From: a virus
IMG/VR virus record: IMGVR_UViG_3300017605_000956
Location: 1-64,000 of that record
DNA: 64,000 bases
Reading direction: 5' to 3' (one strand)
A program made the position numbers and the translations under genes. This document shows positions 7,513 to 25,018 of the stretch, piece by piece. Position 1 is the first letter of the stretch, and every line of letters begins with the position of its first letter. The notes below the pieces were generated by a model that had not been told where the DNA came from, ran no database searches, and worked only from the letters and a program-made list of their open reading frames with translations.

Positions 7513-7553
7513 GAGCCCCGGTTGCCTCTCCAGGCGGCCGGGGCTTTTTCTTT
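7513..7553 (+). terminator. intrinsic terminator
   Basis: GC-rich stem gagccccggttgcct/aggcggccggggctt followed by a T-tract. Confidence 0.75.
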
Positions 7554-7605
7554 CCCCGAGCCTCTTCTCGCCCGTTCCCGGCGTCAGCCGGGAACGGGCA
7601 TGAGG

Positions 7606-7634
7606 TTGACTCCGCCCTTCGCTCGCGATAGACT
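7606..7634 (+). promoter_or_regulatory. sigma70-type promoter (leaderless or short-leader transcript)
   Basis: TTGACT-N17-TAGACT, 6 nt before ATG 7641. Confidence 0.7.
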
Positions 7635-7640
7635 CCCGGC

Positions 7641-7805
7641 ATGGGAAAGCCTCGCAAGGTCCAGTACGTCACGGGCCAGCAGAAACCCCAGCCCGGCAGC
7701 ACGGTCCTCTCGCTGTGTTCGTCGTGCCCACTCGGGCGCAAGGTCGTCGACCTCTCGACGAAGGCCGTGGTGAAGGAGCTGAAGAAGAAATGGGGAAGCC
7801 GGTAG
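7641..7805 (+). CDS. 54-aa CxxC protein (not in ORF track)
   Basis: MGKPRKVQYV...LSLCSSCPLGRKVV...KKKWGSR directly after the promoter. Confidence 0.65.
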   Translation: MGKPRKVQYVTGQQKPQPGSTVLSLCSSCPLGRKVVDLSTKAVVKELKKKWGSR

Positions 7806-7951
7806 ACCCGAAGAGCAACCCGGCGAAGCCGGGTTGTGGAGCGAAGAAAACGCCCAAGGGCGTCACCTACTACGTCTCCGCGACCTGACCCGCCGGCAAG
7901 AGGCTCGTTCGTCAGGTGACGAAGATGGTCAAGAAGGACATGGGGCTGTAG
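7790..7951 (+). CDS. putative 53-aa selenoprotein (in-frame UGA 7886-7888, SxxU)
   Basis: MGKPVDPK...YYVSAT-U-PAGKRLVRQVTKMVKKDMGL; UGA aligns to the Cys of the upstream paralog; read-through TAG abuts the next ATG. Confidence 0.6.
7908..7923 (+). promoter_or_regulatory. SECIS-like hairpin
   Basis: ttcgtc-AGGT-gacgaa; loop starts about 25 nt after the UGA. Confidence 0.5.
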
Positions 7952-8824
7952 ATGCCGCTCACGCCCGTATTCGTCGAGAAGGCCACCGGAGATCAGGCGG
8001 CTCCTCAGATGGAGGAGCAGTTCGGTGGTGTCTCGAACGACGCCCGCCTGACCCAGTACATCGACTTCGTCGGCCGCCGGATGCTCCCCTACTCGCTCCG
8101 GGGCAACGAGCCCCACAAGTTCCTGGTCCTGAACGACGACAAGGTGATCAATGCCTTCACGCTCGGGAACGGGAACATCTACGTCACCAAGGGCCTCCTC
8201 AAGATGCTGGGCGACGAAGCCGAGCTCGCGGAGGTCCTGGGACACGAGAACGGTCACTTCGGCCATCGCCACATCGCAGCCCAGATGGACCGGGGGATCG
8301 GCCTCGGGCTTATGCTCGCGCTGGCGGAGGGCTTCTACGCGCAGGGCAAGGGCGGCCGGCTCAACGACACGCAGGGCGAGGCCATCGAGAAGGCGAACGA
8401 GCTGGCGATGGGCCTGGTCCTGAACGGCTTCGGCCGGGAGCAGGAGCTCGAGAGCGACGCCCACGGCCTCGAGACGATGGTGAAGTCCGGATACGACCCG
8501 ATGGGCGCCGTCTCGACCTTCCAGAAGTTCCAGCGCCTCGAGCACGAGGTCACGGGCCTGGACGCCTTCCTCCAGTCCCACCCCACGGCCAAGACCCGGA
8601 TCGACGACCTCACCGACGCCATCGCCCACAAGTACCCCAACGTCGAGGGGCGTCGCTACGTCGACCGCTACAACCGGATCGTGAACGGCGGCGAATCCCT
8701 GGACGACGTGGGCGAAGGCCGGGACGGCGGATCCAGCGAGATCCTGGGCGTCCCCACTCCCCTCGCGATCGCCGGAGGACTCGGACTTGCCATTACGACA
8801 GGGATTGTGATAGCCTCCCTCTGA
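7952..8824 (+). CDS. M48 family zinc metallopeptidase with C-terminal TM anchor
   Basis: INAFTL, LGHENGH (HExxH), EQELESD, SHP; terminal hydrophobic helix. Confidence 0.9.
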   Translation: MPLTPVFVEKATGDQAAPQMEEQFGGVSNDARLTQYIDFVGRRMLPYSLRGNEPHKFLVLNDDKVINAFTLGNGNIYVTKGLLKMLGDEAELAEVLGHENGHFGHRHIAAQMDRGIGLGLMLALAEGFYAQGKGGRLNDTQGEAIEKANELAMGLVLNGFGREQELESDAHGLETMVKSGYDPMGAVSTFQKFQRLEHEVTGLDAFLQSHPTAKTRIDDLTDAIAHKYPNVEGRRYVDRYNRIVNGGESLDDVGEGRDGGSSEILGVPTPLAIAGGLGLAITTGIVIASL

Positions 8825-8836
8825 ACGGGAGGCCCG

Positions 8837-9079
8837 ATGCCCAAGAACCTCGAGCGCGTCGCGGAACAAGCCGTGGAGGCCTGCGGCAGATTCCACACCA
8901 GCCTTCACCAGTGGCAGGATTGCGCGCGGGGCGTCAACATCGCCAAGCGCCTCACCAAGAAGCGTGGCCTCAAGGTCGGCCGGAAGGCGGCTCTGCGCGT
9001 CTGCAAGGCGACCGAGAAGGACCGGGGTCCTCGCCGGCGCTGTTTCGAGGGAGTCCGGTTCTTCACCACGGGGGTATGA
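8837..9079 (+). CDS. small basic Cys-pair protein (putative core protein)
   Basis: two C-x12-C-x2-GV units; K/R-rich. Confidence 0.7.
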   Translation: MPKNLERVAEQAVEACGRFHTSLHQWQDCARGVNIAKRLTKKRGLKVGRKAALRVCKATEKDRGPRRRCFEGVRFFTTGV

Positions 9080-9492
9080 TGAGCGGCAAGTACAAGCCCT
9101 TCGCGACCGCCAAGCTCACGGTGAAGAACAACCGGACCGGCTTCGGCTGGAGGTCTCCCAAGGACATGAAGGTCTTCGTCGACTCGGGTGCGTCCATCAC
9201 CATCCTGCCGCCCGAGGCCCTTCCGGTGCTCAAGCAGAAGACCGGCCACTTCGAGTCGATGCCGGCGCGCGTCCAGACGGCCAACGGCATCAAGGATGCG
9301 ACGGCCCTGAAGGACGCCACGCTCTGCCTCGACGCCGTCTGCTTCCGGGGCAACGTCCTCATCAGCGACGGGATCAACGGCGACGTCCTGATCGGTTCGG
9401 ACTTCCTCACGAAGGCGGGCTGTAAGCTCGACTTCAAAAAGAAGACCCTGAACTGCGGTGGCAAGCGGATCAAATTCAAGATGGAGGCGTAG
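9076..9492 (+). CDS. retropepsin-like aspartic protease
   Basis: FVDSGASITIL, VQTANG flap, VLIGSDFL. Confidence 0.9.
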   Translation: MMSGKYKPFATAKLTVKNNRTGFGWRSPKDMKVFVDSGASITILPPEALPVLKQKTGHFESMPARVQTANGIKDATALKDATLCLDAVCFRGNVLISDGINGDVLIGSDFLTKAGCKLDFKKKTLNCGGKRIKFKMEA

Positions 9493-9531
9493 AAGGTTCC
9501 GTAGCCGAAATATTTATTTGAGGAGGCGGCT

Positions 9532-9765
9532 ATGGAACAACCCAAGGTGGGGCAGCACGTGGTGTACGTGGACGAGCGCGGAGTCGCTCGGGATGCGTTG
9601 GTGACGGCGAACTGGGGTTCGTCGATCAACGTGGTCGTGGTGGAGACGGACGAGAACCAGACCGACAGCTACGGTCGGAAGATCGCCCGGGAAACCAGCC
9701 AGGTGCATCGCAGCAACCAGCAGGCGCCGGGGCGCTACTGGCGCTGGCCCAGCGAAACCGCGTAA
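9532..9765 (+). CDS. small SH3-like phage protein
   Basis: GAGGAGG RBS; PKVGQHVVY...PGRYWRWP. Confidence 0.65.
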   Translation: MEQPKVGQHVVYVDERGVARDALVTANWGSSINVVVVETDENQTDSYGRKIARETSQVHRSNQQAPGRYWRWPSETA

Positions 9766-9837
9766 GCGGTTGAAGCCCGACGAGAGCCGACCTTGACGCG
9801 ACGCTCGACGAGGGCGACTTAGGAACAGGAGATGCTG

Positions 9838-10185
9838 ATGGCTCGACGCAAGCGCCGGATCCGCATGGGCGCGATCGACCGCGACGACATCATGAACGCC
9901 GCGGGCAAGATGAAGCACTTCTGCCTCAAGAAGTGGGACACGAAGCAGTTCGTCTCCGCCTGCTCGAAGACGGTCGACGTGATGACGAAGAACCTGCTCG
10001 CCCAAGGCCCCGAGCTCACCGCCCACAACGTCGCGGCGGCCGCCAACAAGACGGACAAGAAGTGCGAGAGCTACAAGGCCGACCGTCGTGGACGGAACCA
10101 GTACGGCAGCGTGTGCTTCCGCGTGGTGGGCGGCTTCATCCGGCTGCTCTCCCAGTCGAAGCCCGGCCTGCAGGGGAGGCGATAG
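9838..10185 (+). CDS. small basic Cys-pair protein
   Basis: MARRKRRIRMGAI..., two Cys pairs, ends GLQGRR. Confidence 0.7.
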   Translation: MARRKRRIRMGAIDRDDIMNAAGKMKHFCLKKWDTKQFVSACSKTVDVMTKNLLAQGPELTAHNVAAAANKTDKKCESYKADRRGRNQYGSVCFRVVGGFIRLLSQSKPGLQGRR

Positions 10186-23707: not shown

Positions 23708-23806
23708 GGACGGCGAGCGACCGGGCAGCCCCGCATCCGGGGCTGGTCGCTGGCGCGACCAGCCCCCCGTGTGTGAGCCATCCGAGTCTTGAGAAAGGAG
23801 AATGGC

Positions 23807-25018
23807 GTGGACGAGATGCAGAGAATGAAGCGAGCCCGAACGATGCTCCTTCTACACTACCCCTTCTTCGGCTACTTGGCGGCGAAGCTGAAGATCGTCG
23901 AATCGACGGCGTATCCGACGATGGCGACGGACGGGCGGCACATCTTCTTCAACCCGGACTTCACGAAGAAGCTGTCCGCGAACCAGACGCTCACGGGCAT
24001 CGCCCACGAGGTCATGCACAACGCCTGCGAGCACTTCAGCCGCGCCGGCTCGCGGGACCCCGAGAAGTGGAAGAAGGCGGCGGACTACGCGATCAACCTG
24101 ATCCTGAAGGACTCGGGCTTCGCGCCGATCGACATCCCCGGCGTCTTCTCGTGGCTGCTCGACGAACAGTGGCGCGGCATGACGGCGGAGCGGATCTGCG
24201 ACACGATGCCCAGCTCCCCGCCGTGCCCGAGCTGCGTGATCGTGAAGGTGAGCGGAGGCGGGCTGCCCGGGGCCGAGTCGAACGAGGATCCTGGGGAAGA
24301 CCCCCAGAAGCAGGACCCGACGGCCCCCGACCACAGCCAGTCGAAAGATCCCATCCCCCCGCCGGTCAACTGGAAGCGGGCGCTCGTCGAGGCGGCCCAG
24401 TTCGCCAAGATGCGCGGCAAGCTCCCCGCCGGGATGGAGGAGATGGTCGACGGCATCATCCACCCGAAGGTCAACTGGAAGCAGATCATCCGGAACTCGT
24501 TCGCCGCGGCGAAGAAGACGGACTGGACGTACCGCCGACCCAACAGGCGCTACGCCCACACGGGGATCGCGATGCCGGTGCCGTTCGGGTACCGCTCGTC
24601 GGTCGAGTGGTGGGGCGACTCCTCCGGGTCGGTCGGAGCCCAGGAATGGAAGATGGGGCTCGGGATCTGCGTGGACATCGCCAAGTCGATGCGGATTCCG
24701 ATCAACGTCGGGGTCTGCGACGCGCAGGTCCACCTGTTCGAGGAGAACGTGAAGGACAACGACATCGCGAAGAGAGTGAAGTTCCTCGGTCGCGGCGGCA
24801 CCGACTTCCGTCCGATCTTCGAGCACATCACGAAGGGCAAGCGCAAGCCCGACTGCGTGGTCGTCTGGACGGACGGCTATGGGACGTTCCCGCAGAACTG
24901 GAAGCCGAAGTACCAGGTCATCTGGGCGATGCCGGAGAGCTCGGCCACGGTCAAAGTGCCGTTCGGCCGGAAGCTCCTCATCGACATGAAGAACCTGGTT
25001 GGGGCGGTGAGCGCATGA
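23807..25018 (+). CDS. VWA-domain protein with N-terminal metallopeptidase-like domain (DUF2201-type)
   Basis: TMATDG, AHEVMH, DSSGS MIDAS, GRGGTDF, WTDG. Confidence 0.88.
   Translation: MDEMQRMKRARTMLLLHYPFFGYLAAKLKIVESTAYPTMATDGRHIFFNPDFTKKLSANQTLTGIAHEVMHNACEHFSRAGSRDPEKWKKAADYAINLILKDSGFAPIDIPGVFSWLLDEQWRGMTAERICDTMPSSPPCPSCVIVKVSGGGLPGAESNEDPGEDPQKQDPTAPDHSQSKDPIPPPVNWKRALVEAAQFAKMRGKLPAGMEEMVDGIIHPKVNWKQIIRNSFAAAKKTDWTYRRPNRRYAHTGIAMPVPFGYRSSVEWWGDSSGSVGAQEWKMGLGICVDIAKSMRIPINVGVCDAQVHLFEENVKDNDIAKRVKFLGRGGTDFRPIFEHITKGKRKPDCVVVWTDGYGTFPQNWKPKYQVIWAMPESSATVKVPFGRKLLIDMKNLVGAVSA

What the first reader, a model, noticed from the sequence alone, without database searches (positions are those of the whole stretch)
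7641..7951. Hidden viral selenoprotein (SxxU) with SECIS-like hairpin, tandem to a CxxC paralog
Seen: two mini-ORFs missed by the track, both starting MGKP. The first has LCSSCPLGRKVV; the second reads YVSAT-TGA-PAGKRLV, so the UGA (7886) sits exactly at the second Cys of CxxC-P. Read-through ends at TAG 7949-7951, directly abutting the M48 ATG at 7952, which is this genome's normal packing. A hairpin ttcgtc-AGGT-gacgaa lies about 25 nt downstream. Established: bacterial SECIS elements are hairpins just 3' of the UGA with a G in the first loop positions, and the E. coli fdhF loop begins AGGU. Inference: a virus-encoded Sec redox mini-protein that uses host SelABC, which would be very rare in prokaryotic viruses and would imply a Sec-utilising host.
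Basis: partly seen in the sequence, partly recalled or inferred. Interest (0 to 1): 0.86.

Follow-up and report, generated by a model that had tools for sequence, protein, structure and literature searches.

The report
Probable selenocysteine mini-protein in soil virus
A tiny gene of an uncultured 78-kb virus of soil bacteria runs through an internal UGA "stop" at the spot where its relatives have an invariant cysteine. It therefore most likely encodes a selenocysteine protein made with the host's machinery, which I found reported in no paper for a virus of bacteria.

Summary
Two overlapping mini-genes (7641-7805 and 7790-7951) sit between a sigma-70-type promoter and an M48 peptidase gene. 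The second has an in-frame TGA (7886-7888) aligned with the second Cys of the first gene's CSSC-P.

- **Family:** profile searches found a small, metagenome-only family of about 12 clusters of ~53-aa basic proteins. Nine are full-length Cys forms (..SAT-C-PAGK..VKKDLGLK). Four further lineages are called as truncated exactly at ..YYVSAT.
- **Comparison with a relative:** in soil contig L001 the neighbouring M48 is only 69% identical. The TGA is kept, and the 20 codons after it differ at 4 bases, all synonymous. Unconstrained sites differ by about 35%.
- **Genetic code:** TGA is otherwise a normal stop (24 of 64 long ORFs). This is the only TGA in the genome after which coding continues without a restart codon.
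- **Hairpin:** the 6-bp hairpin with loop AGGU, 25 nt after the UGA, fits the bacterial SECIS consensus. It is held by rare codons and matched by 2% of synonymous resamples, but 31% of all TGA triplets here also pass the consensus.
- **Unknowns:** the host is unknown, and the virus carries no Sec machinery.

Verdict: selenocysteine recoding, about 0.65. This scan has noted the same kind of finding in unrelated marine phages.

The parts
7513..7546 (+). Intrinsic terminator of the upstream gene (15-pair stem, then a T run)
7570..7599 (+). Perfect 13-bp hairpin just upstream of the -35 box. L001 has a different 14-bp hairpin at the same place.
7606..7634 (+). Sigma-70-type promoter TTGACT-17-TAGACT. 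The -10 box ends 6 nt before ATG 7641 (leaderless geometry). The same geometry in L001 lies directly before the U-form gene.
7641..7805 (+). Mini1: 54-aa Cys paralog (type B, CSSC-P). Absent from L001.
7790..7951 (+). Mini2: 53-aa read-through ORF (type A, C16 ... S-A-T-U33-P-A-G-K), the putative selenoprotein gene
7886..7888 (+). In-frame TGA at the invariant Cys column of the family; putative Sec codon
7908..7923 (+). 6-bp hairpin with loop AGGU, 25 nt after the UGA; candidate bacterial SECIS. Identical in L001 (1448-1463).
7952..8824 (+). M48 zinc metallopeptidase with a C-terminal hydrophobic tail. Its ATG abuts the TAG of mini2. It is the conserved neighbour in L001.

Best explanation
Mini2 (7790-7951) is a selenoprotein gene of a virus of bacteria.

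Proposed mechanism (inferred):
- UGA 7886-7888 is decoded as selenocysteine by the host's SelB and Sec-tRNA(Sec).
- These are recruited by the hairpin at 7908-7923, which acts as an in-ORF bacterial-type SECIS.
- The product is a 53-aa basic protein: a beta-hairpin followed by a helix, with Sec33 at the helix N-cap (motif S-A-T-U-P) and a conserved Cys16 as likely partner.
- When recoding fails, a 32-aa fragment is released.

Most likely role (inferred): a thiol/selenol redox or metal-binding mini-protein. It would act with the co-transcribed M48 peptidase and/or on the many Cys-bearing small basic proteins encoded just downstream.

Shown here: the conserved UGA, the Cys homologs, purifying selection on the downstream frame, and selection on the hairpin.
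Inferred: Sec insertion, SelB dependence, and the redox role.
For: 1. **Cys/Sec pair.** The profile search found full-length Cys forms P0006, P0008, P0009, P0010 and P0016, plus type B forms P0011, P0022 and P0023. The Cys is invariant at the UGA column, and the same C-terminal peptide PAGKxLVxxVxxxVKKxLGL follows it.
2. **The stop is kept across lineages.** L001 has TGA at the same codon 33. Run X1 keeps it. P0003 and P0014 are called as ending at the same ..YYVSAT. The N-terminal parts of these forms are only 53-97% identical.
3. **The downstream frame is under purifying selection.** Between the window and L001, codons 34-53 show 0 nonsynonymous and 4 synonymous differences. Codons 1-32 show 10 nonsynonymous and 9 synonymous. 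M48 is 69% identical, and 33% of its identical-residue codons differ synonymously. The promoter spacer differs at 6 of 17 positions.
4. **There is no general recoding.** TGA ends 24 of 64 long ORFs. 7886 is the only in-frame stop with coding continuing and no start codon within 4 codons.
5. **The hairpin meets the bSECIS consensus** (PMC13188914): loop 4 nt, G at loop position 2, stem 6 bp, spacing 25 nt, -10.5 kcal/mol with the lower stem.
6. **The hairpin looks selected.** It depends on GTT (5.1% of Val codons), CGT (8.1% of Arg codons) and GTG, the only synonymous choices that keep the stem. Only 62 of 3000 codon-usage-weighted synonymous resamples give an equally stable G-loop hairpin. For the Cys paralog's hairpin the figure is 727 of 3000. 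The hairpin is identical in L001.
7. **The motif fits known conversions.** S-x-x-U matches the T/SxxU/C class of thiol-redox families in which Cys-to-Sec conversions are typical (PMC1794560).
Against: - Only two sequences could be read at the DNA level, apart from a near-identical strain. The hairpin is identical in both, so no covariation can be shown.
- The SECIS consensus is unspecific here: 31% of all TGA triplets pass, and 22% of synonymous resamples pass.
- The whole 76-nt stretch is not more stable than shuffled sequence (z = +1.5).
- No Rfam SECIS match was found.
- The host is unknown, so its Sec trait is untested.
- The virus has no Sec genes of its own.
- The UGA is followed by C. 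By my own recollection this is a weak-termination context, which would also suit Sec-independent read-through.
Confidence: 0.65

Rival explanations
1. Sec-independent programmed or leaky read-through. UGA-C is read at low frequency by a near-cognate tRNA (Trp, Cys or Arg), perhaps helped by the downstream hairpin. The result is a major 32-aa product and a minor 53-aa product, as with the UGA read-through that extends the coat protein of RNA phage Q-beta.
For: - The downstream frame is conserved and therefore translated.
- The UGA-C context is present.
- The hairpin is short and passes an unspecific filter.
- The host's Sec trait is unknown.
Against: - The UGA sits on the one invariant Cys of the family. 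Trp or Arg there would probably destroy function.
- The only substitute for Cys seen at that column is UGA, which is the classical Cys/Sec signature (PMC13188914, PMC1794560).
- The hairpin's position and G-containing loop fit the SelB-type model.
Confidence: 0.15
2. True termination. The functional product is the 32-aa N-terminal peptide, or the gene is a decaying pseudogene. The downstream 63 nt would then be conserved for another reason, for example an RNA element that controls translation or stability of the abutting M48 message.
For: - Gene callers end the protein there in five lineages.
- The hairpin lies 29 nt before the M48 start and could act on it.
- Synonymous change is lower from the UGA to the end of the hairpin than after it: 1 change in codons 34-46 against 3 in codons 47-53. 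This shows some RNA-level constraint.
Against: - All 4 differences in the 60 nt are third-position and synonymous in the read-through frame.
- That frame encodes exactly the most conserved peptide of the Cys forms.
- GC3 is 0.90 and the codon score equals that of real genes.
- A pseudogene would not stay open and unchanged while M48 diverged to 69% identity.
Confidence: 0.12
3. UGA is read as Cys by a special host system (a tRNA-Sec-like tRNA charged with Cys and delivered by a SelB-like factor), or the UGA is an assembly or sequencing artefact.
For: The Cys column would be satisfied directly. Such tRNAs have been described in some bacteria, by my own knowledge; this was not tested here.
Against: - The artefact reading is excluded: the TGA is present in three independent assemblies, namely the window, run X1 and L001.
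- No evidence for a special Cys system is available, and the virus encodes no tRNA.
Confidence: 0.04

Closest known systems
[quoted passage not shown]
   Same: - In-frame UGA at a Cys position.
- Cys-containing homologs.
- A coding hairpin with a G in the first two loop positions, 16-37 nt after the UGA (here 25).
- Dependence on cellular SelA, SelB, SelC and SelD.
   Different: - The gene lies in a virus genome that has none of the machinery.
- The protein is only 53 aa and belongs to no described selenoprotein family.
- The hairpin is minimal (6 bp, 4-nt loop).
- Incorporation is untested.
Thiol-redox selenoprotein families with UxxC, CxxU or T/SxxU motifs (Prx-like, SelW-like, AhpD-like and others; PMC1794560)
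   Same: - Motif S-A-T-U, preceded by a beta-strand and followed by a helix.
- A paralog with CxxC at the same place.
- Rare Sec forms among commoner Cys forms, which suggests a Cys-to-Sec conversion.
   Different: - No significant sequence or fold match to any thioredoxin-fold family. Pfam Thioredoxin_4 gives E 0.014, 16 bits against a cut-off of 23.2.
- The best structural Z is 2.2.
- The protein is too short for a thioredoxin fold.
Selenoproteins of eukaryotic viruses (fowlpox virus GPx4 homolog with a SECIS inside the coding region, PMC1802603; molluscum contagiosum virus GPx, from my own knowledge)
   Same: A virus-encoded gene that relies on the host's Sec-insertion machinery.
   Different: Those are captured host glutathione peroxidases with eukaryotic-type SECIS elements. 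This one is a virus-only family with a bacterial-type hairpin directly after the UGA.
Phage selenoprotein candidates noted earlier in this scan (marine T4-like and jumbo phages; e1-5362015, e1-6084864, e1-6071520, e1-5741536, e1-6018030)
   Same: - A conserved UGA where relatives have Cys.
- A SECIS-type hairpin just downstream.
- A small gene missed by gene callers.
   Different: - A different virus: high-GC, from soil, with no recognisable tailed-phage genes noted.
- A different protein family.
- Far fewer relatives, so no hairpin covariation can be shown.
UGA read-through extension of the coat protein in RNA phage Q-beta (from my own knowledge)
   Same: A phage gene whose product is extended past a UGA.
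   Different: There Trp is inserted at a non-critical position and both products are used. Here the UGA replaces the family's invariant Cys.

Membership tests
Bacterial-type selenoprotein gene (SelB/SECIS recoding) | In-frame UGA with coding sequence continuing in the same frame | tested here: met
   GC3 is 0.90 and the codon score is 0.65 bits per codon after the TGA. It is the only such TGA in the genome.
Bacterial-type selenoprotein gene (SelB/SECIS recoding) | Homologs with Cys aligned to the UGA and conserved flanks on both sides | tested here: met
   Nine Cys forms; C33, P34, G36 and V47 are invariant.
Bacterial-type selenoprotein gene (SelB/SECIS recoding) | UGA and downstream frame conserved among orthologs under purifying selection | tested here: met
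   L001 has TGA at codon 33, with 0 nonsynonymous and 4 synonymous differences in 20 codons, against 69% identity in M48. Three further lineages are truncated at the same residue, but their stop codons were not read.
Bacterial-type selenoprotein gene (SelB/SECIS recoding) | SECIS hairpin fitting the bSECIS consensus (loop 3-9 nt, stem 4-16 bp, G in the first two loop positions, spacing 16-37 nt, MFE <= -7.5 kcal/mol) | tested here: met
   Loop AGGU, stem 6 bp, spacing 25 nt, -10.5 kcal/mol. The filter passes 31% of all TGA triplets, so this is weak on its own. The hairpin is more stable than 98% of synonymous resamples.
Bacterial-type selenoprotein gene (SelB/SECIS recoding) | Covariation that supports the hairpin across relatives | tested here: inconclusive
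   The hairpin is identical in the only other DNA available, so there is no compensatory change to count.
Bacterial-type selenoprotein gene (SelB/SECIS recoding) | Sec machinery (selA, selB, selC, selD) available in the translating cell | not testable with these tools
   The host is unknown. Methylase relatives are scattered over six phyla at 37-44% identity. The virus itself has none of the machinery.
Bacterial-type selenoprotein gene (SelB/SECIS recoding) | Selenium actually incorporated at the UGA | not testable with these tools
   This needs 75Se labelling or mass spectrometry.
Thioredoxin-fold oxidoreductases (Pfam Thioredoxin_4 / Prx-like) | Significant match to the family profile or fold | tested here: not met
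   Profile: E 0.014, 16 bits against a cut-off of 23.2, covering only profile positions 3-43 of 165. Fold: inconclusive; the searches list no thioredoxin-fold chain. At 53 aa the protein is too short for the fold.
General stop-codon reassignment (TGA as a sense codon, codes 4 or 25) | TGA absent as a stop and frequent inside genes | tested here: not met
   TGA ends 24 of 64 long ORFs, and there is a single in-frame case.

The most novel reading that the evidence does not exclude
A virus of soil bacteria, one with no recognisable tailed-phage genes, encodes a 53-aa selenoprotein of a virus-only family.

- The virus would hijack the host's SelB/tRNA-Sec recoding through a minimal 16-nt SECIS.
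- The Sec33-Cys16 pair would form a selenylsulfide that can persist or act in the reducing cytoplasm, for example to staple or oxidise the virus's many Cys-bearing core proteins, or to gate the adjacent M48 protease.
- Each such gene would also be a host marker: the host must decode Sec.
Probability: 0.55. Interest if true: 0.8.

Novelty: new variant of a known kind. Interest (0 to 1): 0.72.

Why it matters
- **Selenoproteins in phages.** Selenoproteins are known from cells and from a few viruses of animals. The papers I could search describe none for a virus of bacteria. If real, this shows that phages can exploit SelB-dependent recoding.
- **A small model.** It adds a new and very small Cys/Sec protein family. 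With 53 aa and a 16-nt hairpin, it is a convenient minimal system for studying SECIS function.
- **A host clue.** It gives a genetic marker for an otherwise unassignable soil virus, because the host must have selA, selB, selC and selD.
- **An annotation lesson.** Gene callers truncate or miss such genes. Here five lineages are stored as 30-34-aa fragments.

Tried and rejected
**RNA family and fold checks**
- Rfam gave no match at gathering score over the whole window. At E <= 10 over 7600-8100 it gave no SECIS family.
- A whole-stretch fold of 7880-7955 is not more stable than shuffles (z = +1.5).

**Searches for more relatives' DNA**
- Viral contigs, with M48, P0001, mini1, P0010, P0009, P0008 and a degenerate DNA pattern: nothing. 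P0014 was too short to use as a query, and alignment A3 was too diverse.
- Genome contigs with alignment A4: nothing.
- GenBank phages, by blastn and tblastn: nothing for the region or for P0010. M48 gave only distant hits of 25-30% identity.
The contigs of P0003, P0014 and all Cys forms therefore could not be read.
- The one metagenome scan gave only L001.

**Expression**
- No RNA holder was listed among the sequencing runs.

**Host inference**
- Methylase relatives are scattered over unrelated phyla.

**Function**
- Pfam gave only a sub-threshold Thioredoxin_4 hit.
- The AlphaFold model has pLDDT 72.7. It has no fold match: Foldseek best E 0.77 and VIA best Z 2.2.
- Complex prediction of M48(1-262) + Zn + mini1 returned no verdict.

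**Readings rejected**
- General TGA reassignment.
- The other 12 in-frame stop junctions are ordinary gene boundaries with a start codon within 4 codons.
- The long proteins P0007, P0012 and P0015 hit the profile only through a repeated short ..CPAGK.. motif and are unrelated.
- An independent short gene after the UGA: the first in-frame start would give only 11 aa.

Full report
**What is there.** The window is the first 64 kb of a 78,478-bp virus record with direct terminal repeats and 64% G+C. All credible genes lie on the + strand, and there is no tRNA.

After the terminator of the upstream gene (7513-7546) come three features in order. First is a perfect 13-bp hairpin (7570-7599). Next is a sigma-70-type promoter, TTGACT-17-TAGACT (7606-7634), whose -10 box ends 6 nt before ATG 7641. 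Then come two overlapping mini-genes:
- Mini1 (7641-7805, 54 aa) contains LCSSCPLGRKVV.
- Mini2 starts at ATG 7790 and reads MGKPVDPKSNPAKPGCGAKKTPKGVTYYVSAT. TGA follows at 7886-7888, then PAGKRLVRQVTKMVKKDMGL, then TAG at 7949-7951.

The ATG of an M48 peptidase (Pfam E 5e-30) abuts that TAG at 7952. BLASTP aligns the two mini-proteins (E 1e-4) with the TGA opposite the second Cys of CSSC.

**Is the stretch after the TGA coding?** Yes.
- GC3 is 0.90 in frame. The codon-usage score is 0.65 bits per codon, as in M48 (0.61), and every other frame scores lower.
- TGA is an ordinary stop in this genome: 24 of 64 long ORFs end with it, against TAG 28 and TAA 12.
- I scanned all in-frame stop junctions where both sides look coding. 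Twelve are gene boundaries with a start codon within four codons of the stop. Position 7886 is the only TGA and the only junction without a restart codon. General reassignment of TGA is therefore excluded.

**Relatives.** Word-index and full-library profile searches recovered a very small family of about 12 clusters at 90% identity among 5.8 billion proteins. All are metagenomic and unnamed.
- Type A Cys forms: P0006, P0008, P0009, P0010 (with P0018 and P0019) and P0016. They read ..G-C-G..(K)G-x-T-Y-Y-V-S-A-T-C-P-A-G-K-x-L-V-x-x-V-x-x-x-V-K-K-D-L-G-L-K.
- Type B forms: mini1, P0011, P0022 and P0023. They lack the N-terminal Cys and have C-S-[ST]-C-P instead.
- The invariant columns are C33, P34, G36 and V47.
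- Four further type A lineages are stored as 30-34-aa proteins that end exactly at ..YYVSAT: P0002, P0003, P0014 and P0024. Their N-terminal parts are 53-97% identical to one another. The nearest Cys forms, P0006 and P0009, are about as close, at 48-70%.
- Some members lie on contigs of 64-79 kb, the size of this genome.

**DNA-level comparison.** The single metagenome scan returned L001, a 3.6-kb soil contig.
- In L001 the same promoter geometry directly precedes a type A gene, and there is no mini1. TGA is at codon 33, the same 20 residues follow, and then come TAG and the M48 gene.
- The two viruses are well diverged. M48 is 69% identical, and a third of its identical-residue codons carry synonymous differences. 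The N-terminal 32 codons of mini2 show 10 replacement and 9 synonymous differences. The promoter spacer differs at 6 of 17 bases.
- Against that background, the 60 nt after the TGA differ at only 4 bases. All 4 are third-position and synonymous in the read-through frame.
- A run from another soil study (X1) carries a 518-nt contig with two differences and the same TGA, so the codon is not an assembly artefact.

The stretch after the UGA is therefore translated and under strong purifying selection. Truncation and pseudogene readings do not fit.

**The hairpin.** TTCGTC-AGGT-GACGAA (7908-7923) meets the published bacterial SECIS consensus: loop 3-9 nt, stem 4-16 bp, G in the first two loop positions, 16-37 nt after the UGA, and MFE <= -7.5 kcal/mol (PMC13188914). 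The values here are 4 nt, 6 bp, 25 nt and -10.5 kcal/mol with the lower stem.

The filter is unspecific. It passes 31% of all 1990 TGA triplets in this genome. The larger region is no more stable than shuffles, and Rfam finds nothing.

Two results nevertheless suggest the hairpin is selected:
- Its 5' arm is made by GTT (5.1% of Val codons) and CGT (8.1% of Arg codons). Together with GTG, these are the only synonymous choices that pair with the protein-fixed ACG-AAG arm.
- I resampled the 20 downstream codons synonymously by the genome's codon usage. An equally stable G-loop hairpin arises in 62 of 3000 trials (2.1%). The weaker-looking hairpin at the corresponding place of the Cys paralog mini1 (loop CCUC) is matched in 727 of 3000.

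The hairpin is identical in L001. That is conservation but not covariation.

**Machinery and host.** The virus has no tRNA-Sec, SelA or SelB-wing match, and no tRNA at all. The sigma-70-type promoter, the GGAGG-like motifs before many starts and the gene content (ParB, C5 methylase, PD-(D/E)XK nuclease, DUF3987, DUF2201 peptidase) point to a bacterial host. I could not identify that host: the methylase's nearest cellular relatives are scattered over unrelated phyla. Holders of near-identical DNA are soil and rhizosphere metagenomes.

**Interpretation.** The combination is the standard signature used to call bacterial selenoproteins (PMC13188914, PMC1794560):
- an invariant Cys replaced only by UGA;
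- the UGA kept across diverged lineages;
- a downstream frame under purifying selection;
- a SECIS-compatible hairpin that looks selected.

I put Sec recoding by host SelB/tRNA-Sec at 0.65. Sec-independent read-through is at 0.15; the UGA-C context would allow it, but Trp or Arg at the invariant Cys is unattractive. True termination with RNA-level conservation is at 0.12, and exotic UGA-to-Cys systems or an artefact at about 0.04.

**The product.** The AlphaFold model (pLDDT 72.7) is a beta-hairpin (residues 17-28) followed by a helix (34-51), with residue 33 at the helix N-cap. The motif S-A-T-U resembles the T/SxxU/C class of redox selenoproteins. No family or fold match supports membership.

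Function is inferred only. Cys16 in type A, or the CxxC of type B, would be the partner thiol. The gene's constant neighbour is the M48 metallopeptidase, and several small basic proteins with four Cys each follow it. A redox or metal-handling role in that module is my best guess.

**Limits.**
The stop codons of P0003 and P0014 and the DNA of all Cys forms could not be examined.
- Only one divergent DNA relative supports the selection analysis.

**Prior notes in this scan.** This scan has noted the same kind of finding (conserved UGA at a Cys column plus a SECIS-type hairpin) in unrelated marine T4-like and jumbo phages. Those are unchecked AI notes on other DNA and are not evidence here. I found no paper describing a selenoprotein of a virus of bacteria.

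Noticed in passing
window 7570-7599; L001 1261-1291: A perfect 13-bp hairpin sits just upstream of the -35 box. L001 has a 14-bp hairpin of different sequence at the same place, sharing only the CCGGC/GCCGG top. The structure is conserved and the sequence is not. It could be an operator, a terminator without a U-tract, or a processing site.
   Followed up: partly
window 7606-7643; L001 1296-1332: The promoter TTGACT-17-TAGACT ends 6 nt before the ATG in both viruses. This predicts a leaderless mRNA for the first gene of the operon. It is the only exact match to this promoter pattern in the 64-kb window.
   Followed up: partly
window 7641-7805 versus L001: The Cys paralog mini1 is absent from L001, where the U-form gene takes the promoter-proximal place. 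Both genes begin ATGG(G/T)(A/G)AAGCC. Mini1 therefore looks like a lineage-specific insertion or duplication at the shared 5' end.
   Followed up: partly
window 7816-7836: A 9-bp hairpin (CAACCCGGC-GAA-GCCGGGTTG) lies inside the N-terminal coding part of mini2. L001 has only a CCCGGG palindrome there. It may simply follow from the P-A/G-K-P-G codons.
   Followed up: no
whole genome G000 (1-78478): All credible genes are on the + strand. There is no tRNA. Many gene junctions are stop-then-ATG within 0-4 codons, 12 of them in frame. No relative was found among 50,697 GenBank phage records, nor in IMG/VR by the proteins tried.
   Followed up: partly
window 23789-25018 and 7952-8824: Besides M48, the virus encodes a second predicted metallopeptidase, DUF2201_N plus a VWA-like domain (E 8e-43).
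   Followed up: no
window 8837-10185: The small basic proteins directly after M48 each carry four Cys (for example 8837-9079 and 9832-10185). They are possible substrates or partners of a thiol/selenol mini-protein.
   Followed up: no
P0007, P0015 (proteins): Long secreted-looking proteins with 5-6 repeats of a domain that starts ..(S/T)A(S/T)CPAGK(R)(V/L)(V/L)G.. hit the profile through this motif alone. They are probably an unrelated repeat family.
   Followed up: no
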